From: an uncultured Gammaproteobacteria bacterium | GTDB lineage: Bacteria > Patescibacteriota > Patescibacteriia > Veblenbacterales > UBA10138 | Direction of reading: 5' to 3' | DNA: 64,000 bases | Assembly: GCA_964348825.1 (NCBI GenBank) | Contig: CAYGDX010000002.1 | Location: 80,609-144,608, forward strand | Shown here: positions 9,179 to 49,883 of the stretch, piece after piece | How the letters are laid out: every line of letters starts with the position of its first letter | How positions within the stretch are numbered: position 1 is the first letter of the stretch | Translations under genes and position numbers: made by a program | Notes under the pieces: model-generated | Databases searched by the model: none | What the model was told of the DNA's origin: nothing | What the model saw: only the letters and a program-made list of their open reading frames with translations

Positions 9179-9826
9179 TTACAACCCCAAGGCCATCACA
9201 ATACTATACGTCACCTCACTAATCCCCGGCTGCCCATCTATCGAAAGCAACGCGCCTTTACCACGATAAAATTCAAGTAAGGGTTCAGTTAGTTTGTGAT
9301 AATCATTTAAACGGGCACGAATCGCTTCAGGTGTATCATCTTTTCTAACTTCTAAACTACCACCGCAAGCACACAAACCGTTAGTGGGTGGTGGATTAAA
9401 CTGTTGATGATAAACTGTTCCACATTTTACACAAGTAAGCCGTCCGCCAATTCGCTTAATAGCTACTTCGTCAGATAATTGTAAATATATAATTTTTGTA
9501 TCAGGATAAAACTTAAATAAAAATTCCGCCTGTGATAAATTACGCGGGAAGCCATCGAGCACAAAACCATTGTCAGCGTCATTTTGTTTTAAACGTTCGG
9601 ACACCACCTGATTAGTTATTTCATCTGGCACTAAAATACCATTATCTATCAGAGATTTAACTTTACTACCAAGCTCTGTGCCGCTAGCTACAGCGGCCCT
9701 AAATATACTACCTGTGGCAATATGTGGCACACCAGTCGCCTGTGCCAATACTTTAGCCTGTGTGCCCTTGCCACTGCCTTGCGGCCCTAATAATACGTAT
9801 TGTTTAGTGTTTAACATAACAAGCAT
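9179..9826 (-). CDS. adk: adenylate kinase (zinc-lid type)
   Basis: P-loop GPQGSGKGTQ, LDGFPR, and Cys4 lid (CVKCG...CACGG). Canonical position after secY. Confidence 0.9.
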   Translation of the reverse strand: MLVMLNTKQYVLLGPQGSGKGTQAKVLAQATGVPHIATGSIFRAAVASGTELGSKVKSLIDNGILVPDEITNQVVSERLKQNDADNGFVLDGFPRNLSQAEFLFKFYPDTKIIYLQLSDEVAIKRIGGRLTCVKCGTVYHQQFNPPPTNGLCACGGSLEVRKDDTPEAIRARLNDYHKLTEPLLEFYRGKGALLSIDGQPGISEVTYSIVMALGL

Positions 9827-31984: not shown

Positions 31985-33196
31985 TTACAAAGACAATTTT
32001 TCTGCTATATAATCAACGTCTTTATCTCCCCGACCCGACAAGTTAACTATTACTACTTCACTATTTAACAAAGTCGGGGCCATTTTAATAATATATGCAA
32101 CAGCGTGGGAACTTTCTAACGCTGGAATTATTCCTTCTACTTTAGATAATTGCTGAAAAGCATCAATTGCTTCTTGATCGCTGACTGTAACATATTTTAC
32201 TCTTCCATTTTCTAATAAATCAGCGTGAATAGGCCCAACACCTGGATAATCTAAACCAGAAGCTATTGAATGAACCGGTAGTGGCTCTCCTTTATCATTT
32301 TGTAATAAATAAGTATACATGCCATGAATTGTGCCGGGCTTGCCTTTTGTTAAAGTGGCGGCATGTTCACCAGGTTTAAAACTACGCCCACTTGGCTCTA
32401 CTCCGATCATTTTTACATCATCATCTAAAAATTCGTTAAACAAACCAATTGCATTTGACCCGCCGCCCACACAAGCAACTAAATAATCGGGCAAACGATT
32501 TATTAATTCTAATATCTGTTTTCTGGCTTCACGGCCAACTATTGATTGAAAATCTCTTATCATCATAGGATAAGGGTGCGGCCCTACTACAGAACCAATA
32601 GCAAAAAACGTATCCTTATAATTCTGCAAGTAAGAAGCAAAAGCACTATCCACTGCGTCTTTTAAAGATCTCCCACCTTGATCAACCGGAACCACCTTAG
32701 CACCTAAAAGTTTCATACGAATAACATTGGGGTGCTGTTTGGCGATATCAATTGTTCCCATGTGAATTTCACAATCTAATCCCATAATTGCCGCAGCAGT
32801 AGCCACAGCTACACCATGTTGGCCAGCGCCAGTTTCAGCTAAAAGTTTTTTCTTTCCCATACGTTTAGCCAATAACGCTTCGCCTAAAGTATGATTTATT
32901 TTATGCGCACCAGTATGATTTAAATCTTCACGCTTAAAATAAATCTTCGCTCCCCCCAATTGCTCACTTAAACGCTTAGCAAAATATAGTGGCGAAGGTC
33001 TACCCACATAAGTACTCAAAAGTAATTTGAATTCATTTTGAAGACTTAAATCATTTTTAAACTCTTGATATGCTTCGGTTACTTCATCTAGAGCTAGTTT
33101 TAATTCTGGTGGAATAAATTGCCCGCCATATTTACCAAAGTATCCTTGACTATTAGGTAAAAATTTAAGTGATTCTTTTTTTTGATTGTTAAACAT
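31985..33196 (-). CDS. trpB: tryptophan synthase beta chain, stand-alone TrpB2-type
   Basis: PLP-enzyme motifs ([16 protein letters not shown]). 403 aa with a TrpB2-like N-extension. No other trp genes nearby. Confidence 0.8.
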
Positions 33197-33404: not shown

Positions 33405-33725
33405 TCATACCTTAATTTTACTTAAAACTTTTTTAAACCCACCTGATTTACTATATTTCAATTCCCGCGCACCGCGACTTATGGTAGCTACTGCCACACC
33501 TAATCGATCACTCACTTCACGTATCGATAAACCTTTACAAAGTAATTTTACGATTTGCCAACGCAACGATAATTCGTTGTACTCTTTTGGCGTTAATAAA
33601 TCAGACAAAAAACTTTCTAGTTCCACTGTCGAAGAAAAATTACTTAACAAATTAGTAATTTCTCGACGAAATAACTCTTGTTTATATGATTGATTTTTAA
33701 CTAATTCTCTTCTACTCATACACAA
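33405..33725 (-). CDS. TrpR-like YerC/YecD family DNA-binding protein
   Basis: LTPKEYNELSLRWQIVKLL...GLSIREVSDRLGVAVATISRGAREL fits the Trp_repressor/YerC family. Immediately upstream of trpB on the same strand. Confidence 0.7.
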   Translation of the reverse strand: MCMSRRELVKNQSYKQELFRREITNLLSNFSSTVELESFLSDLLTPKEYNELSLRWQIVKLLCKGLSIREVSDRLGVAVATISRGARELKYSKSGGFKKVLSKIKV

Positions 33726-33939: not shown

Positions 33940-33970
33940 AAAAAAGGCAATCAGAGATCAATTGCCTTAA
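33940..33970 (-). terminator. rho-independent terminator after the small-ORF cluster
   Basis: aaggcaat-N9-attgcctt stem followed on the minus strand by a U-run. Confidence 0.45.
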
Positions 33971-34003: not shown

Positions 34004-34192
34004 TTACTCAATGTAGGGTCGAAATTGTTCCAGATAATATTCATCATCAAGTAAATCATTTGCATTAACGATCAACGCGCGGCTTGGGTTACAACAGATA
34101 CAAAAATTTCCCAATTGTTGTCGATCGTTACTACTGTATCCCCTTCCACTTTCCGGACATTTCCATTCTTCATTTGGAGATTTAATGCTCAT
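34004..34192 (-). CDS. small Cys-containing hypothetical protein (62 aa; CPESG...CICC)
   Basis: ORF, last of three tightly packed minus-strand small ORFs. Confidence 0.4.
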   Translation of the reverse strand: MSIKSPNEEWKCPESGRGYSSNDRQQLGNFCICCNPSRALIVNANDLLDDEYYLEQFRPYIE

Positions 34193-34208
34193 TACTTTCT
34201 CCTTTTTA

Positions 34209-34520
34209 TTACATATGAATTGTTAACTCTTCGCGGTGTACTTGCGGTTGTAATAATACAGGTGATTTTAATGACGATAAATTAAACAAATCTTCACTCG
34301 TTCTTATTGTTTGTTCGTCTATTTCATCATCTTCTGCAATTAGTGGCTGGTGTTTGTGGGTGCAAGCCGATCCAAAAATACCACCCAACCTACTCGTATC
34401 AAAACCTTGAAAGAAAAAACTACACCCTTGATGTAAACATAAAGTAATATTTTTTTCTTTATCAAAGGCAACCGAATGGCCTAAAATTCCACCTATTTTT
34501 TGATATCTCTTTTCTTCCAT
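34209..34520 (-). CDS. hypothetical protein with Cys/His cluster (103 aa)
   Basis: ORF. The stop abuts the upstream ORF (34522). Confidence 0.4.
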   Translation of the reverse strand: MEEKRYQKIGGILGHSVAFDKEKNITLCLHQGCSFFFQGFDTSRLGGIFGSACTHKHQPLIAEDDEIDEQTIRTSEDLFNLSSLKSPVLLQPQVHREELTIHM

Positions 34521-34521
34521 A

Positions 34522-34710
34522 CTATTCTGCCCCCTCCTGATCAGAATCAGGAAAAGTTTGTTTTGGTGGTTGAGGTGGTAATTCAGATTTTAGATCTAAA
34601 TCATCACCTGATGTATTGTTATAATGTTTCATAAAGTTTTCCTTTTGTTTTTTTTGGTTTTTAATTTTACTAATTAAATTGTTAAAAAACTGTTTTGGTA
34701 AAAAATTCAA
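34522..34710 (-). CDS. small hypothetical protein with acidic Pro-rich tail (62 aa, or 36 aa from internal Met)
   Basis: ORF, preceded by a hairpin at 34716-34746. Confidence 0.35.
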   Translation of the reverse strand: MNFLPKQFFNNLISKIKNQKKQKENFMKHYNNTSGDDLDLKSELPPQPPKQTFPDSDQEGAE

Positions 34711-34974
34711 CCACTCTTAGACAAGAGCGGTTGAAGGTAATTTTGAATTTATAATTATGCTTAATTTATACCTCGTCGCTCATTTTTGTGAATATCAAGA
34801 ATCAAACCATAAATCATGGCTTGCTTGACTACGAGCGGATTGATATTAAAACTTTGCATATCTAAAATAGAGATTAACATAAATAAAAAAATATGTAAAG
34901 CTCAAACTTATCCACAGAATAAAATAAAAAAGAGATGATACGCACCACCTCTTTTTAAAAATTATTTTTATTCC

Positions 34975-36048
34975 TTACCCAAGCCCGAGCACCTTTACCA
35001 TTTGCTTCACTAGCGAAACTACAATCGGTGGTGGTAGCAAACTATAACTATCTACTCCCGCATCATCTTTAATAGTCCAACGCGATTCTTTCACTATTAC
35101 TTTACCGCCCTCGCCCATTTCATAATCATAGCCCGGTGTAATTTCATAATCATTCACGCTTGCCTCACCTTCCTCAACTGGAATAGCATTGCGCAAATAA
35201 ATTTTCGGAATACCATGAAGCCCTAAAAGCTGTTGCATAATTTTATCATCCATTTCCAAACGCTCACGAATTGGATCAATACCTAAATTATCACCTTCTT
35301 TAGGCACCATTCGCGCACCGGCGCAAACCGGATTATCACATTTCAAGTAAAATTCCTTAGTTGCTTCATCGTACCCAGCATCTTTGGTCGCCATTAATTT
35401 TAAGTTGCGTGGTGTTTTACAAAGTGGACAAATCACGCGGTACTTAATGCGCTCGTTAATTACCGTATTAGGTAAGCTAATAAAAACCAGAAAATCTGGA
35501 TCCTCGCGGTAGCCAATTATTTCTTTAAGGAATAAAGCGTAGCTCACTTGATCCATAGCGCGTGGAAAACCATCAATAAAAATGGCTTGCTTAGGGCGCT
35601 TGGAAATTTCGTATTTAATTAAAGTTAAAATAAGTTCAGATGATACGAGTTTAGATTGACTGCGACCTAAAATAAGATCAATGGTTTCTTCTGGTGAATG
35701 AAAGCCACGATAATTATTTTTAATAAACTCTACCAACTCTTTCTGACCCTCAGGTGTTTCTACTAAATGATGTGCGTCGCGCACGATATCGCCCACTGAC
35801 AAATGACCGACATTACTTGCGCCCACCGCTTCCATAAATAATTTAGAATATGTACCCTTGCCGGAATTTTTTTTACCCAAGAGGAAAGCGACAAAAGTTT
35901 TACCTTCATCTAAATATTTTTTGATAAGCTTAAGCTCGGCACCCATTTTCAAATCAAAATAATCCCGTCGGCTTTTCGGATCATTCAAATCAAATCGCGG
36001 ACTACCTTCTAACTTCGTCTTAAAAACTGGAAAATTATTCAAATCCAT
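34975..36048 (-). CDS. long adenylate-kinase-fold NMP kinase paralog with N- and C-terminal extensions
   Basis: P-loop GKKNSGKGT, NMP-binding VGDIVRDA, IDGFPR, and Cys4 lid (CPLCK...CDNPVCAG), plus ~55-aa N-terminal and ~100-aa C-terminal extra regions. Confidence 0.65.
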   Translation of the reverse strand: MDLNNFPVFKTKLEGSPRFDLNDPKSRRDYFDLKMGAELKLIKKYLDEGKTFVAFLLGKKNSGKGTYSKLFMEAVGASNVGHLSVGDIVRDAHHLVETPEGQKELVEFIKNNYRGFHSPEETIDLILGRSQSKLVSSELILTLIKYEISKRPKQAIFIDGFPRAMDQVSYALFLKEIIGYREDPDFLVFISLPNTVINERIKYRVICPLCKTPRNLKLMATKDAGYDEATKEFYLKCDNPVCAGARMVPKEGDNLGIDPIRERLEMDDKIMQQLLGLHGIPKIYLRNAIPVEEGEASVNDYEITPGYDYEMGEGGKVIVKESRWTIKDDAGVDSYSLLPPPIVVSLVKQMVKVLGLG

Positions 36049-36154
36049 AAATATTAGTTAAAAATAAAAATACTTAGCGTTTATATGTTAACATAAAATA
36101 AATAAAAAGCAAGCGGTGAATTTTCACCGCTTGAATATTGTTTAGAATGTTTAT

Positions 36155-36514
36155 TCACCCCTTACGTATGGCAAGAACTTTATTAAGAGCTTCTCTTACT
36201 GTTTGTTCATTAAAATTACCACGTTGTAAATATGGCATAGCCCCGGGCGGATTACTATCCACATCCATAAAAATAACTTGCGCTCTTTCTTCATTCAAAC
36301 GTAAAGCGTATTCGGTAATCCATTCCGGTTGACCTTCTCTAGTAGAACAAATAACAACATCGAACTCTTGTTTAGTGTGAATAACCGATTCTACTTTAAA
36401 AGGATCATCACAAAATGTTACCGCGTGCCCTAATTTTTTATTTAATACCGTTTGAGCTGTTTCTCGCCATTGTTGTTTTTCTTCAAGAAATAATATTTTT
36501 AAACTTTTATTCAT
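36155..36514 (-). CDS. degenerate CheY-like receiver (pseudo-receiver) domain protein
   Basis: Receiver-like beta-alpha pattern (KILFLEE, DVVICS), but the phospho-acceptor Asp positions are substituted. Confidence 0.4.
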   Translation of the reverse strand: MNKSLKILFLEEKQQWRETAQTVLNKKLGHAVTFCDDPFKVESVIHTKQEFDVVICSTREGQPEWITEYALRLNEERAQVIFMDVDSNPPGAMPYLQRGNFNEQTVREALNKVLAIRKG

Positions 36515-36591
36515 TATTTTACCTTTGTTGTTTATTTTGATTATTTTTGATTTTGTTATTTTTTAAAGTTTATCTAACAATTAAACTAAAG

Positions 36592-37452
36592 TCAACGCCT
36601 CACCCATACCTCCCCATTACTCTTAAACCTAATATCCCCTTCTTCATCTGTCCGCAAAACATTTGGGATTAAGTTTTTCAAACGCTCCACAACTTCTTGA
36701 TGTGGATGGCCATAGCGATTACCACTACCCACTGGAATTATGGCGTAGTCCGGTGCCACCGCTTTTAAAAATTCTGGGCTAGATGACGTGCGGCTACCTT
36801 GATGCGCTACTTTTAAAATTTGAGATTTAACATTATAACCCGCGGCTAAAATTGCGCCTTCATTTTTTACTGGCGTATCGCCCGTAAATAAAACTGAAGT
36901 TTTGCCATAATTCACGCGATTCATAATTGACGTATCATTCAGCTCCCCTACTTTTTGCCCTTCATAAGAAAATGGTGGCCAAAATACATCCATTGTTACG
37001 CCACCAGCAAATTTTATCAGCTGACCTTGCTGTGGGCTAATCACGGAAATTTTTTTATCTTTTATAATTCGTAAAAATTCCAAATACTCCGGCGTAGTGT
37101 GTAGTGCGCCAGTCAGCATTACTTGCTTCACTTCATAGCGATTTAGTATATGAACGAGCCCAGTTACGTGGTCGGCGTGCGGATGCGATAAAATCATTAA
37201 ATCAATCGTACGCTCGTACCAAGGTAAAATTTGCCCTAATTTTCTAAGTATACCCCGATCCGGCCCACCATCTATTAAAATTACTTGCCCCGCCGGCGTA
37301 CGCACTACATGAGCATCACCTTGACCAACATCAATAAAAGTGAGCTGGAGATATTTGTTTTGTGATTGTTGGTAGAAAAATATAGATAACAAAACAATAA
37401 CGATTGCTATGGCGAGATATAAAAATCTTCTTGAAATTATAAATTTTATCAT
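36592..37452 (-). CDS. ComEC C-terminal metallo-beta-lactamase domain protein (split from ComEC), N-terminal TM anchor
   Basis: HPHADHVTG (HxHxDH) MBL motif. Lies directly downstream of the ComEC membrane-domain gene. Confidence 0.7.
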   Translation of the reverse strand: MIKFIISRRFLYLAIAIVIVLLSIFFYQQSQNKYLQLTFIDVGQGDAHVVRTPAGQVILIDGGPDRGILRKLGQILPWYERTIDLMILSHPHADHVTGLVHILNRYEVKQVMLTGALHTTPEYLEFLRIIKDKKISVISPQQGQLIKFAGGVTMDVFWPPFSYEGQKVGELNDTSIMNRVNYGKTSVLFTGDTPVKNEGAILAAGYNVKSQILKVAHQGSRTSSSPEFLKAVAPDYAIIPVGSGNRYGHPHQEVVERLKNLIPNVLRTDEEGDIRFKSNGEVWVRR

Positions 37453-37672
37453 GATAATTTTTGCAAATATCTAATTTCTAATCACTAATTTCTAAAAATG
37501 ACTAATATCTAATAACTAAATTTTGGGGATTGGGTTTTGGGATTTTTTAGAAATTAGTCCGCCAGCTGGTGGATTAGTCATTAGTGATTTATTATTTCTG
37601 GATTCCCGCCTACGCGGGAATGACAACTACTATAACTCTTACCTGCCTCGCCGGCAGGCAGGATCTCCACTC

Positions 37673-39091
37673 TTATTTATCCGCCGATGAGGCGCGACTC
37701 TTACTTAATATCCACTTCCCTCCTATTATATAGATTATTATCACCACCAGCCACACCCAAATTGATCCGCCAACTTGTGCATTAGGTAACTGCCCAAACC
37801 ATTCCACAATAAAAACAATATAAGCTAGGGCGAAAGTTGAAAGCCAAATTGCCATAGCGCCCAAAAGTGGCCACGTTGCTACTACCGTTGTAATTAAACC
37901 TAAAATAAATACGGTGGCAACTACCGGCCCCACTAATAAATTTACCACCACACTAACGAGCGACACTTGATCTAAGCGTAATAAAATAATGGGCAAAGTA
38001 ACAAGTGTAGCCGAAATAGTTTGTAAAAAAATTTCTTTTAAATTTATTAGGTCAGGTAATTTTTTAAAAATATTTTCAAGTTTTGGTGCCAGTACTGTTA
38101 AGCCAATCATAGCGGCAAAGGAAAGTTCAAATCCTAAATCTAAAATCAAACGTGGATCAAATAAAAGCATCGTGGCTGCCGCACCAAGTAAAATATTCCA
38201 CGGTTCACTTTTCCGACCTACTAAATGCCCAAATTGAATTAACGATGCCATAATACCAGCGCGCAGTACCGCTGGCTCTGCGCCAGTAAAAACCACAAAC
38301 AAAGCAATTAAACTAATTACCACTATACTTGCTTGCCTGCGCCATAAACCTATTCCTAAAAATAAATAAAATAAAATTTGACTAAGCACCATTACATTAA
38401 AGCCCGACACTGCTAAAATATGTGAGGTGCCAGTGGTGCGGAAACTTTGCAATAAATCTTTGGGTAATCCAGCATCGTCACCCCACAGCATTCCAGTGAG
38501 TAAAGAAGCGTATGGTTCAGCTAAATTTGATTTGATAGTTACCCCAGCTAAATCACGAGCTTGAAGTAAAGTACGTTTTAAACTCCATTTGCCATCACTT
38601 AGGAAAGATAAATCAGGAAAAGCACATTCGCGATAAATATTTTTTAAACGATAATAATCAGCGGTAATTTCGGTTACATTTTTACAACGCACTTTTATCT
38701 CTTGCCCAAAATAAAATTCAGGAAATGGTTTAGTAGTCAATTGAATTTTACCAACACTAAAACCAGGTGACGATACCACATAACGAATTATTTTATCACC
38801 CGCTCGCGGCGCCGCTATAATTTCCGCTGTAAATTCACGTGGACCAACAAAAATATCAGCTGGCGGAGCAATAGGTAAATATAAAGCCCGCCACCAAAGT
38901 ATAGTTGCGGCCAGTAATCCTAAAATAAAAAGCTGGCGTGGTGCCAGCTTTAAACTCATAAAAATTATAGCGGTGATTATTAGCAATACCCACCACCAAC
39001 TTAAATTATAAAACGACCACCAGTTGAATAATAACGCGCCGACTATAATTCCTATGGCTGCAGTGCGGAATATAATAGAAGGATGATGCAT
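37673..39091 (-). CDS. comEC: ComEC/Rec2 DNA internalisation channel, membrane portion (DUF4131 + competence domain)
   Basis: 472 aa polytopic membrane protein with the ComEC competence-domain pattern. Lacks the C-terminal MBL domain, which is encoded separately. Confidence 0.7.
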   Translation of the reverse strand: MHHPSIIFRTAAIGIIVGALLFNWWSFYNLSWWWVLLIITAIIFMSLKLAPRQLFILGLLAATILWWRALYLPIAPPADIFVGPREFTAEIIAAPRAGDKIIRYVVSSPGFSVGKIQLTTKPFPEFYFGQEIKVRCKNVTEITADYYRLKNIYRECAFPDLSFLSDGKWSLKRTLLQARDLAGVTIKSNLAEPYASLLTGMLWGDDAGLPKDLLQSFRTTGTSHILAVSGFNVMVLSQILFYLFLGIGLWRRQASIVVISLIALFVVFTGAEPAVLRAGIMASLIQFGHLVGRKSEPWNILLGAAATMLLFDPRLILDLGFELSFAAMIGLTVLAPKLENIFKKLPDLINLKEIFLQTISATLVTLPIILLRLDQVSLVSVVVNLLVGPVVATVFILGLITTVVATWPLLGAMAIWLSTFALAYIVFIVEWFGQLPNAQVGGSIWVWLVVIIIYIIGGKWILSKSRASSADK

Positions 39092-44267: not shown

Positions 44268-45548
<1,281 letters not shown>

Positions 45549-49136: not shown

Positions 49137-49883
49137 GTGTCTACCCTTGATTCAGAAATCAAACCATCAAAATTAAAATCCACTTTAAATTGGCTCACCG
49201 ACGCTCTTTTTCCCCGCCGTTGCCTCAAATGTGGCTACTTTGACACTTGGTTGTGTTTCAAATGTTTATCTGAACTGCAATTTAAACGCCAACTCCACTG
49301 TCCAGCTTGTACTATAGCTACGACGATTGGTGAATTTTGTAATAATTGTAAAACAAGTCATTTTTTAAATGGTGTGTGGAGCGCTCAACCTTATGGCAAT
49401 AAATTAATCAAACAGTTAATCCACGATTTAAAATTTGAATACATTTCCGAAATTGCGGATCACTTAGGACATTTAATGGTGGTAGCCTTGCAAACCTTTA
49501 CTCTACCACCCGCTTGGCACGCTATTCCAAAAGATAAATGGCAACTAGTACCCATTCCACTGGCAAATAATCGCCTGCGTAAGCGTGGTTATAATCAGGC
49601 ACTGAAACTTTCAGAAAAAGTAAGTGCAGAAATGAATTTAGAAATAATAGAAATTTTAGAGCGTACACGCGACACTTTACAACAAAGCAAGCTAGCGCCA
49701 GAATTAAAAAATACCAATCTTAAAAATGCTTTTCAAATTAAATCCGGAATAAATTTGAATGGCGGCGCTTTTATATTAGTCGATGATGTGTATACTTCCG
49801 GCGCTACTTTAGAAGAAGCGGCGCGAATTCTAAAACAAGCGGGAGCGAGCGAAGTATGGGGCCTAACCGCGGCGTATGGATAA
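49137..49883 (+). CDS. comFC: ComF family protein (ComFC, phosphoribosyltransferase domain plus N-terminal zinc finger)
   Basis: CxxC...CxxC N-terminus and the PRTase motif FILVDDVYTSGATLEEA. Apparent GTG start. Confidence 0.75.
   Translation: MSTLDSEIKPSKLKSTLNWLTDALFPRRCLKCGYFDTWLCFKCLSELQFKRQLHCPACTIATTIGEFCNNCKTSHFLNGVWSAQPYGNKLIKQLIHDLKFEYISEIADHLGHLMVVALQTFTLPPAWHAIPKDKWQLVPIPLANNRLRKRGYNQALKLSEKVSAEMNLEIIEILERTRDTLQQSKLAPELKNTNLKNAFQIKSGINLNGGAFILVDDVYTSGATLEEAARILKQAGASEVWGLTAAYG

What the first reader, a model, noticed from the sequence alone, without database searches (positions are those of the whole stretch)
34004..39091. Split ComEC - pseudo-receiver - long adenylate-kinase-like - small Cys-protein operon: candidate DNA-uptake / nucleotide-salvage module
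Seen in the sequence: six co-oriented minus-strand genes. These are the ComEC membrane channel (37673-39091), a separately encoded ComEC MBL nuclease domain with its own TM anchor (36592-37452), a degenerate CheY-like receiver (36155-36514), an unusually long adenylate-kinase-fold NMP kinase with a Cys4 lid plus ~55-aa N-terminal and ~100-aa C-terminal extra regions (34975-36048), and three tightly packed small ORFs, two of them Cys/His-rich (34004-34710), ending at a terminator at 33940-33970. The gap between the two ComEC parts is filled by palindromic repeats. Established knowledge: the ComEC MBL domain degrades one strand of incoming DNA to nucleotides, and NMP kinases rephosphorylate (d)NMPs. 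Inference: this may be a dedicated module coupling DNA import, strand degradation and rephosphorylation of released dNMPs in an organism that probably lacks de novo nucleotide synthesis, with the small Cys proteins and pseudo-receiver as uncharacterised accessory or regulatory parts. A canonical adk already exists at 9179-9826, so the long paralog is not the housekeeping enzyme.
Basis: partly seen in the sequence, partly recalled or inferred. Interest (0 to 1): 0.78.

Follow-up and report, generated by a model that had tools for sequence, protein, structure and literature searches.

The report
Split ComEC beside conserved long kinase
The genes are real and the DNA-uptake protein ComEC lies next to an unusually long, very highly conserved adenylate-kinase-like enzyme in many ultra-small (Patescibacteria) bacteria. 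The evidence points to an old housekeeping gene neighbourhood, not a dedicated machine that recycles nucleotides from imported DNA.

Summary

**What holds up**
- The ComEC split is a conserved gene fission. In 29 related species the channel and the membrane-anchored MBL nuclease are separate ORFs, 20 of them overlapping by a few bases, and none is fused.
- The 119-aa protein has a receiver fold but no acceptor Asp, and it is almost an orphan.
- The 357-aa kinase belongs to a Patescibacteria-wide family with 55-85% identity and dN/dS 0.015. All adenylate-kinase catalytic motifs and a Cys4 lid are present, plus three insertions.
- Among 53 species loci with enough flank, ComEC lies upstream on the same strand in 32. 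An AspRS-type class II aminoacyl-tRNA synthetase gene (called AspRS here) lies directly upstream in 25. Both occur in 6 and neither in 2.

**What does not**
- Here the kinase sits between two strong terminator-like hairpins.
- The small ORFs and the pseudo-receiver are confined to this lineage.
- The MBL nuclease faces outward.
- A Saccharibacterium transforms with ComEC but has no long kinase.

**Verdict**
The linkage is real, but a dedicated uptake-and-rephosphorylation module is not supported. I read the kinase as an essential housekeeping NMP kinase, possibly covering the gmk/cmk/tmk genes reported as poorly represented in Parcubacteria.

The parts
37673..39091 (-). ComEC N-terminal half (472 aa): membrane channel / Competence domain, preceded by a likely OB-fold region
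   Evidence: Pfam PF03772 E 5e-52, residues 201-460. TIGR00360 scores 100 bits against a cutoff of 36.5. It is a separate ~485-aa ORF in 36 related loci.
37453..37672 (.). 220-bp spacer between the two ComEC halves. It holds REP-like palindromes (about 37595-37665) and three AT-rich direct repeats (37466-37519).
   Evidence: RNA fold of 37590-37670 gives -33.8 kcal/mol, z -4.7. In relatives the two ORFs usually overlap by about 4 nt, so the spacer is an insertion specific to this lineage.
36592..37452 (-). ComEC C-terminal half (286 aa): N-terminal TM anchor plus MBL nuclease domain (SHPHADH motif)
   Evidence: Lactamase_B E 1.7e-14. Aligns to TIGR00361 positions 409-663. It is a separate ~286-aa ORF with a basic-then-hydrophobic N-terminus in 35 loci.
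36155..36514 (-). Pseudo-receiver (119 aa): CheY-like fold, no phospho-acceptor Asp, lineage-specific
   Evidence: AF2 pLDDT 87 with (beta-alpha)5 topology. PDB hits are receivers. Pfam 13.3 bits against a cutoff of 30.2. hhalign against true neighbouring receivers gives probability 2%. Only two relatives among billions of proteins. dN/dS 0.17.
36110..36133 (-). Terminator-like hairpin plus U-run between the pseudo-receiver and the kinase
   Evidence: Fold energy -16.3 kcal/mol, z -6.0. Conserved in L001 while the flanking spacer diverges.
34975..36048 (-). Long adenylate-kinase-family NMP kinase (357 aa) with a Cys4 lid and three insertions
   Evidence: dN/dS 0.015.
34927..34956 (-). Terminator-like hairpin plus U-run directly after the kinase stop codon
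   Evidence: Fold energy -12.8 kcal/mol, z -4.9. 93% identical in L001; the two differences, both T to C, fall in the 3' half of the stem.
34633..34974 (-). Conserved non-coding stretch (candidate small RNA or leader) ending in a hairpin at 34735-34706 plus a U-run
   Evidence: 90-94% identity to L001 without indels, while neighbouring dS is about 0.5 and the adjacent sORF1 is 51% identical. Fold z -4.9. No Rfam match.
34522..34632 (-). sORF1 (36 aa from ATG 34632): acidic and proline-rich, fast evolving
   Evidence: RBS plus ATG. The same ATG opens a 46-aa ORF in L001 that ends 3 nt before sORF2. Called as a gene in L081 and L082.
34209..34520 (-). sORF2 (103 aa, Cys/His-rich), orphan
   Evidence: dN/dS 0.11 against L001. 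No other homologue in 5.8 billion proteins.
34004..34192 (-). sORF3 (62 aa, Cys-rich), orphan
   Evidence: The ORF is kept in L001 at 83% amino-acid identity, dN/dS 0.32.
33944..33968 (-). Terminator-like hairpin after sORF3
   Evidence: Fold energy -9.6 kcal/mol, z -3.4.

Best explanation
This is a stretch of the conserved housekeeping gene string that lies upstream of the str/S10/spc ribosomal operons in a Patescibacteria genome. It is not a dedicated DNA-uptake and salvage operon.

**Components**
1. ComEC carries an ancient gene fission. One ORF encodes the OB region and the channel. The next encodes the last TM helix plus the MBL nuclease. The two are normally translationally coupled; here a REP-like insertion separates them.
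2. A variable slot follows. In this lineage it holds an orphan pseudo-receiver.
3. Next comes a Patescibacteria-specific long adenylate-kinase-family enzyme under extreme purifying selection. Here it has its own flanking terminators.
4. A lineage-specific insert follows: a conserved non-coding element and three orphan small ORFs.

**How the kinase most likely works (inferred)**
It is a cytoplasmic NTP:NMP phosphotransferase with a Zn-lid that serves general nucleotide homeostasis.

**Why ComEC is next to it (inferred)**
The adjacency most likely descends from an ancestral comEC(N)-comEC(C)-AspRS-kinase-(NUDIX) arrangement. Different lineages kept different parts of it. That may give co-expression, but it does not imply direct handover of ComEC nuclease products.
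For: **Family and constraint**
- 3947 hits. The top 120 are all 323-367 aa and 62-85% identical to the query (100% for its own cluster).
- 460 species genomes encode a relative.
- dN/dS is 0.015, against 0.17-0.25 for the neighbouring genes.
- In the same loci the kinase is 55-81% identical while ComEC is 24-55%.

**Catalytic motifs and fold**
- The P-loop GKKNSGKGT, GD..R, DGFPR..DQ, the lid Arg residues and Cys207/210/237/242 are invariant. They align to the window's own Adk and to B. subtilis Adk.
- The fold is adenylate kinase.

**Synteny**
- Upstream gene counts and tree order.
- Independent gene calls with Pfam labels agree.
- The kinase is followed by M50-rpsL-rpsG-fusA in several loci, and by the same genes about 5 kb downstream in the window.

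**Transcription units**: internal terminators, conserved in L001.

**Lineage-specific parts**.

**Topology and genetics from the literature**: PMC13539106 and PMC10633639.
Against: - ComEC-kinase linkage in 60% of loci, kept while the intervening gene changes (none, AspRS, PPIase, receiver or orphan), is more persistent than the prfB-ComEC or kinase-rpsL adjacencies. This could reflect selection for a functional link.
- MBL-kinase gaps of -37 to +5 nt in several lineages indicate true co-transcription there.
- A NUDIX gene often follows the kinase, in 21 of 67 loci, which hints at a nucleotide-metabolism theme.
- No enzymology or expression data exist.
- Terminator function is inferred from sequence only.
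- The ancestral gene order is inferred from a distance tree of one protein.
Confidence: 0.6

Rival explanations
1. One reading: a dedicated module in which ComEC imports DNA, its MBL domain degrades one strand, and the long kinase rephosphorylates the released dNMPs. The pseudo-receiver and the Cys-rich small proteins act as accessory parts.
For: - ComEC lies upstream on the same strand in 32 of 53 loci across deep lineages.
- Overlapping or near-zero MBL-kinase gaps occur in some lineages.
- NUDIX is a frequent downstream neighbour.
- CPR bacteria lack de novo nucleotide synthesis, and DNA scavenging has been proposed for them (PMC6744442).
- From my own knowledge: the B. subtilis comE operon also carries a nucleotide-metabolism gene, comEB (dCMP deaminase).
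Against: - 21 of 53 loci have no ComEC detected within 5 kb upstream on the same strand, and the kinase is as tightly tied to the AspRS-type gene.
- Terminators bracket the kinase here.
- The proposed accessory genes are orphans.
- The MBL nuclease is periplasmic (PMC13539106).
- comEC is non-essential in S. epibionticum, which transforms without a long kinase (PMC10633639).
- The kinase evolves like a core enzyme while ComEC evolves fast.
Confidence: 0.17
2. The long kinase is a non-orthologous replacement, or a broad-specificity phosphotransfer hub, for NMP kinases missing from Parcubacteria-type Patescibacteria (gmk, cmk, tmk). Alternatively it is an NDP/NTP interconverting enzyme in RNA-fed nucleotide and energy metabolism. 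On this reading the ComEC neighbour is incidental. This is compatible with the best explanation and refines the kinase's role.
For: - Nelson & Stegen noted that cmk, gmk and tmk are poorly represented in Parcubacteria while adk is well represented, and they suggested a broad-specificity kinase (PMC4508563).
- Gmk is absent from the cultured Microgenomatia strain OT8, where Adk/Cmk-type phosphotransfer is proposed to be central (bioRxiv 10.64898/2026.06.21.733656).
- S. epibionticum has cmk and gmk, and only one Adk-type kinase is listed for it.
- The family is extremely conserved and sits among translation genes.
- The insertions fall in the NMP-binding domain and in the loop that binds the donor base in Adk, judged and from known Adk structure. 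This step is inference.
Against: - The residues that read adenine in Adk are kept: Gln after DGFPR (Q167) and the KLV-type loop. That favours AMP/dAMP as acceptor.
- I could not survey any genome with the long kinase for gmk, cmk or tmk.
- The complementary pattern rests on one genome and one older literature statement.
Confidence: 0.3
3. The ComEC split is an assembly or frameshift artefact, or a decaying pseudogene.
For: A 220-bp repeat-filled gap separates the halves in this window.
Against: - There are two ORFs in all 29 loci where both halves are adjacent, 20 of them overlapping by a few nt, and none is fused.
- The MBL ORFs all begin with their own basic-then-hydrophobic anchor.
- The MBL motif is intact and dN/dS is 0.25.
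- The same arrangement appears in independent assemblies.
Confidence: 0.02

Closest known systems
Bacterial adenylate kinase with Zn-binding Cys4 lid (for example B. subtilis Adk, PDB 1p3j/2osb; Pfam PF00406)
   Same: Same fold (Foldseek E about 1e-9 to 1e-10). The P-loop, GD..R, DGFPR..Q, lid arginines and four lid cysteines are all present.
   Different: - 357 aa instead of about 215.
- Only 20-26% identity.
- A ~50-aa N-terminal extension with a long helix, a ~25-aa insertion in the NMP-binding domain (invariant Y113-R114-G115-x-H117), a longer lid, and a ~50-aa beta insertion before the last helix.
- Below every NCBIfam adk cutoff.
- Coexists with a canonical adk at 9179-9826.
Canonical single-chain ComEC/Rec2 (TIGR00361; cryo-EM structure in PMC13539106)
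   Same: The Competence channel domain and an MBL nuclease domain with the HxHxDH motif are both present. Together the two proteins cover the model in order, positions 126-364 and 409-663.
   Different: It is encoded as two polypeptides, split before the last TM helix. This is conserved across many Patescibacteria. PMC6744442 noted that the fused form is essentially absent in CPR. In this window a REP-like insertion also uncouples the two ORFs.
B. subtilis comE operon (comEA-comEB-comEC), where a dCMP deaminase gene sits in a DNA-uptake operon (from my own knowledge)
   Same: A nucleotide-metabolism enzyme gene is persistently adjacent to comEC.
   Different: The enzyme differs (NMP kinase rather than deaminase) and the order differs (downstream of comEC). 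The association is not universal here, and comEA is not seen in these loci.
Single-domain CheY-like response-regulator receivers (PF00072)
   Same: The 119-aa protein has the (beta-alpha)5 receiver fold. Genuine receivers occupy the same slot in front of the kinase in L008, L063, L065, L073 and L078.
   Different: There is no acceptor Asp at the end of beta3 (VVICS), helix 4 is replaced by a loop, it scores below the Pfam threshold, and no sequence relationship to those receivers is detectable.

Membership tests
Adenylate kinase / NMP kinase family (PF00406) | Pfam gathering score reached | tested here: met
   50 bits against a cutoff of 26.8.
Adenylate kinase / NMP kinase family (PF00406) | Walker A P-loop, NMP-site GD..R and DGFPR, lid and C-terminal arginines | tested here: met
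   These columns are invariant in 28 sequences and align to the window's Adk and to B. subtilis Adk.
Adenylate kinase / NMP kinase family (PF00406) | Adk three-domain fold (CORE, NMP-binding, LID) | tested here: met
   AF2 pLDDT 86. The top 50 PDB hits listed (the full listing) are all adenylate kinases, including AK2/AK3/AK4 isoforms.
Canonical housekeeping Adk (NCBIfam adk equivalogs, TIGR01351) | Score above the curated equivalog or subfamily cutoff | tested here: not met
   Best score is 69.8 bits against a cutoff of 168, and all 20 or so adk models are below cutoff. A separate canonical adk lies at 9179-9826.
Adenylate kinase / NMP kinase family (PF00406) | ATP:NMP phosphotransferase activity and substrate range | not testable with these tools
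   Needs enzymology.
ComEC/Rec2 | Competence (channel) domain | tested here: met
   PF03772 E 5e-52 and TIGR00360 above cutoff.
ComEC/Rec2 | MBL nuclease domain with metal-binding HxHxDH motif | tested here: met
   Lactamase_B above cutoff. SHPHADH is present in the translation. Aligns to TIGR00361 positions 409-663.
ComEC/Rec2 | Single polypeptide reaching the full-length equivalog cutoff (TIGR00361, 190 bits) | tested here: not met
   99.9 and 133 bits for the two halves separately. The split is conserved in 29 loci.
ComEC/Rec2 | N-terminal OB fold (DUF4131) | tested here: inconclusive
   No PF13567 hit for the window protein at E <= 0.1. The counterpart in L085 carries DUF4131.
Response-regulator receiver (PF00072) | Receiver fold | tested here: met
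Response-regulator receiver (PF00072) | Phospho-acceptor Asp at the end of beta3, and the Pfam score threshold | tested here: not met
   Beta3 ends in VVICS, with C56 and S57 invariant in three homologues. Pfam score is 13.3 against a cutoff of 30.2.
Single operon / dedicated module | No internal terminators, and all parts conserved together in relatives | tested here: not met
   Three internal terminator-like hairpins. The receiver-like gene and the small ORFs occur only in L001. ComEC is linked in 32 of 53 loci.

The most novel reading that the evidence does not exclude
The long Adk-like enzyme is the missing nucleotide kinase of Parcubacteria-type Patescibacteria. It would be a broad-specificity or non-adenylate (GMP/CMP/dTMP, or NDP-interconverting) phosphotransferase whose insertions remodel the acceptor and donor base pockets. 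It would be kept in an ancestral operon with comEC and the AspRS-type gene because nucleic-acid-derived nucleotides are this group's only nucleotide source. That would explain the absence of gmk, cmk and tmk noted in 2015.
Probability: 0.3. Interest if true: 0.65.

Novelty: new variant of a known kind. Interest (0 to 1): 0.42.

Why it matters
Patescibacteria cannot make nucleotides. How they obtain and re-energise them is an open question, with DNA scavenging through ComEC and, more recently, feeding on host RNA both proposed.

A phylum-wide second adenylate-kinase-like enzyme under near-absolute purifying selection is an obvious, cheap biochemical target for that question. It has remodelled substrate pockets and sits persistently beside comEC, the AspRS-type gene and NUDIX.

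The conserved two-gene ComEC also shows where the protein tolerates fission: before the last TM helix, leaving a separately anchored periplasmic nuclease. That is useful for structural work on DNA uptake.

If the kinase turns out to be an ordinary second Adk, the finding reduces to a synteny note.

Tried and rejected
- **Frameshift or assembly artefact for the ComEC split.** Rejected: two ORFs in all 29 comparable loci.
- **Homology of the 119-aa protein to the true receivers that sit before the kinase in other lineages.** hhalign gave probability 2%. Only the fold links them.
- **TTG-34710 start for sORF1.** Rejected in favour of ATG 34632. My first dN/dS run wrongly suggested sORF1 was broken in L001, because the nucleotide alignment shifted frame. 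Direct translation shows a 46-aa ORF.
- **Rfam for the conserved non-coding stretch.** Nothing. It is not found in other loci.
- **A 39-aa ORF inside that stretch** (window about 34879-34760; L001 2030-2149). It differs at 5 of 39 residues with few nucleotide changes, so there is no sign of protein-level constraint.
- **Homologue searches for the pseudo-receiver and sORF2.** Essentially orphans. P0125 is low-complexity noise.
- **AFDB fold search.** Unavailable.
- **Gene inventory.** I could not survey a whole genome for gmk, cmk, tmk or pyrH. None turned up among the window ORFs I scanned, but about half of the window's ORFs were not scanned.

Full report
**1. Observation**

- 37673-39091 is a Competence-domain protein (PF03772, E 5e-52).
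- 36592-37452 is an MBL protein that aligns to positions 409-663 of the full-length ComEC model TIGR00361. The first protein covers positions 126-364.
- The MBL protein has an intact SHPHADH motif and begins MIKFIISRR followed by a hydrophobic helix.
- 34975-36048 reaches the Pfam ADK threshold but none of the NCBIfam adk cutoffs.
- A canonical 215-aa adk next to map lies at 9179-9826.
- The 220-bp gap between the ComEC halves carries palindromes that recur elsewhere in the window.
- A terminator-like hairpin sits at 33968-33944.

Two caveats apply. Nearly every ORF between 5.4 and 44 kb is on the minus strand, which includes the S10/spc/str ribosomal operons, so co-orientation carries no weight. 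All three are stronger than the accepted 'end' terminator at -9.6.

**2. The ComEC split is real and old**

A scan of one genome per species found 460 genomes with a relative of the kinase, and 80 loci were retrieved. ORF calling and clustering on those loci gave these results.
- ComEC appears as a ~485-aa channel ORF followed by a ~286-aa MBL ORF in 29 loci where both are adjacent.
- In 20 of these the ORFs overlap, typically by 4 nt. None is fused; the longest channel ORF is 610 aa.
- Every MBL ORF starts with its own basic-then-hydrophobic anchor.

[quoted passage not shown] The fission therefore falls before the last TM helix and leaves the nuclease outside the cytoplasm. The outward orientation here is my inference from the positive-inside rule.

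[quoted passage not shown] The adjacent, translationally coupled MBL gene explains where the domain went. The window is unusual only in having REP-like elements inserted between the halves.

**3. The kinase**

*Size and conservation of the family*
- The 357-aa protein has 3947 relatives at E <= 1e-5. The best 120 are 323-367 aa (all but one truncated entry 353-367) and 62-85% identical to the query over the full length, 100% for its own cluster. Sources name them 'nucleoside monophosphate kinase' from Doudnabacteria, Liptonbacteria, Paceibacterota and others.
- Against the sister species L001 its dN/dS is 0.015 (dS 0.56). The values are 0.25 for the MBL gene and 0.17 for the receiver-like gene.
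- Across the same loci the kinase keeps 55-81% identity while ComEC keeps 24-55%.

*Catalytic equipment*
- The P-loop (GKKNSGKGT), GD..R, DGFPR..DQ, the lid arginines, four lid cysteines and the C-terminal arginines are invariant.
- They align with the window's own Adk (hhalign probability 96.6) and with B. subtilis Adk.

*Structure*
- The AlphaFold model (pLDDT 86) matches adenylate kinases in the PDB at 20-26% identity.
- The extra length has four sources: an N-terminal ~50 aa with a long helix, a ~25-aa insertion in the NMP-binding domain with invariant Y113-R114-G115-x-H117, a longer lid, and a ~50-aa beta insertion (288-337) between the last core strand and the last helix.
- The protein has no signal peptide or TM segment, so I take it to be cytoplasmic.
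- The Gln after DGFPR and the KLV-type loop, which read adenine in Adk, are retained. The last insertion sits where Adk binds the donor base. Both points rest on established Adk structure, and their consequences here are inference.

**4. Is the kinase tied to ComEC?**

Among the 53 loci with at least 4.5 kb upstream:
- 32 have ComEC upstream on the same strand within 5 kb.
- 25 have a ~472-aa class II aminoacyl-tRNA synthetase directly upstream (tRNA-synt_2 plus anticodon OB). I call it AspRS from motifs I recognise; Pfam covers the D, K and N enzymes.
- 6 have both, in the order ComEC(N)-ComEC(C)-AspRS-kinase.
- Only 2 have neither.

On a distance tree of the kinases these states are interleaved. 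The gene between ComEC and the kinase varies: none, AspRS, a cyclophilin, a genuine receiver, or the orphan seen here. Gaps between the MBL gene and the kinase are as small as -37 to +5 nt in some lineages. Gaps between AspRS and the kinase are often -16 to +10 nt.

A NUDIX gene lies within 3 kb downstream, on either strand, in 21 of 67 loci. A TrpR-like gene, a release factor gene and the M50-rpsL-rpsG-fusA block also recur downstream. Independent gene calls with precomputed Pfam labels agree.

The linkage is therefore real and more persistent than prfB-ComEC, but it is not obligatory, and the AspRS link is equally tight. The simplest reading is an ancestral comEC-AspRS-kinase-(NUDIX) string at the head of the translation-gene region, differentially eroded.

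**5. Why the 'uptake plus rephosphorylation module' is not supported**

a. In this genome and its sister species, conserved terminator-like hairpins bracket the kinase.
b. The proposed accessory parts are lineage-specific. The receiver-like protein and sORF2/sORF3 occur only in L001 among the 80 loci. They have one or two relatives, or none, in billions of proteins.
c. The nuclease is extracytoplasmic, so its products are not delivered to a cytoplasmic kinase.
d. In Southlakia epibionticum comEC is dispensable for growth and required for transformation, and the authors argue against a nucleotide-acquisition role (PMC10633639). Its gene table lists a single 183-aa Adk-type kinase plus cmk and gmk, and no long kinase.

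The idea that CPR scavenge DNA for nucleotides is already in the literature (PMC6744442), so only the kinase link would be new.

**6. What the kinase may be doing**

Nelson and Stegen found it 'puzzling' that Parcubacteria largely lack cmk, gmk and tmk while adk is well represented. They suggested a broad-specificity kinase (PMC4508563). A 2026 preprint reports that a cultured Microgenomatia strain lacks Gmk and lives on host RNA, with PNPase and Adk/Cmk-type phosphotransfer (10.64898/2026.06.21.733656).

A second, remodelled and extremely conserved Adk-family enzyme in these groups is a natural candidate for the missing activities, or for NDP/NTP interconversion. I give this about 0.3. The retained adenine-reading residues argue for AMP/dAMP, and I could not survey any whole genome for these genes.

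**7. The other parts**

*The 119-aa protein.* It is a true gene (dN/dS 0.17). Its confident model has the (beta-alpha)5 receiver fold. It lacks the acceptor Asp (beta3 ends VVICS) and helix 4. It shows no sequence relationship to the genuine receivers that occupy the same slot in L008, L063, L065, L073 and L078. 'Pseudo-receiver' is a fair label.

*The small ORFs.*
- sORF2 (dN/dS 0.11) looks like a real orphan gene under purifying selection. sORF3 (dN/dS 0.32, few substitutions) is kept as an ORF but the test is weaker.
- sORF1 probably starts at ATG 34632. It is open in both species (36 and 46 aa) but only 51% identical.

*The non-coding stretch.* The 340 nt between the kinase stop and that ATG are 90-94% identical between the two species, without indels. 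Neighbouring synonymous sites have dS about 0.5. The stretch contains the two hairpins and folds well (z -4.9). It has no Rfam match. With only two sequences I could not test it further.

**8. Verdict**

The most valuable residue is the Patescibacteria-wide long Adk-like kinase and its persistent comEC/AspRS/NUDIX neighbourhood, together with the conserved two-gene ComEC. Both are new variants of known kinds. Interest is moderate at 0.42, and would rise if the kinase proves to be the missing NMP kinase of these organisms.

Noticed in passing
window 34633-34974 (minus strand); L001 1937-2277: A non-coding stretch 90-94% identical between two species, without indels, where neighbouring synonymous sites have dS about 0.5. 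It is bounded by two terminator-like hairpins (34956-34927 and 34735-34706) and has no Rfam match. It may be a small RNA, or a leader or attenuator for the small ORFs.
   Followed up: partly
window 25558, 27899, 28518, 29934, 37603, about 37640-37665, 39412: Two families of GC-rich REP-like palindromes (TTCCCGC-N4-GCGGGAA and CCTGCCTGCCGG..AGGCAGG) are scattered through this AT-rich window. They give spurious ORF translations such as LDSRLRGNDN. One pair has been inserted between the two ComEC halves.
   Followed up: partly
window 49137-49883 (+): A ComFC-type protein (double zinc ribbon plus phosphoribosyltransferase domain) lies about 10 kb from comEC on the other strand, so the competence genes are not clustered.
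   Followed up: no
window 31985-33196 and 33405-33725 (minus strand): A stand-alone TrpB (PALP) gene sits beside a TrpR-like repressor gene. This pair is absent at the syntenic place in L001. A TrpR-like gene also recurs downstream of the kinase in several distant loci (L002, L010, L013, L015, L018, L087).
   Followed up: partly
window 44280-45548 (+); L081 501-1769: An adenylosuccinate synthase (purA) gene occurs in an organism expected to lack de novo purine synthesis. It lies near F420-ligase-like, RibD_C and Vut_1 (queuosine-precursor transporter) genes.
   Followed up: no
related loci, e.g. L086 7123-7569, L087 7080-8248: A NUDIX hydrolase gene lies within 3 kb downstream of the long kinase, on either strand, in 21 of 67 loci, sometimes in two copies.
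   Followed up: partly
L003, L014, L017, L027, L033, L044: In these loci (two labelled Doudnabacteria; the others carry non-specific or unreliable taxon labels) only the ComEC channel ORF was found next to the kinase, with no MBL ORF within 5 kb upstream. The nuclease half may be elsewhere in the genome or lost.
   Followed up: no
window 37466-37519: Three AT-rich 16-nt direct repeats (AATATCTAATTTCTAA and variants) lie immediately upstream of the MBL start codon. L001 has a different short-repeat insertion (TTCTTGATTC and variants) upstream of its kinase.
   Followed up: no
related loci, cluster c4 (e.g. L086 7566-8282): A short (~240 aa) release-factor-like gene (PCRF plus RF-1 domains, 32-40% identical to the window's prfB) lies on the opposite strand downstream of the kinase in many AspRS-linked loci.
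   Followed up: no
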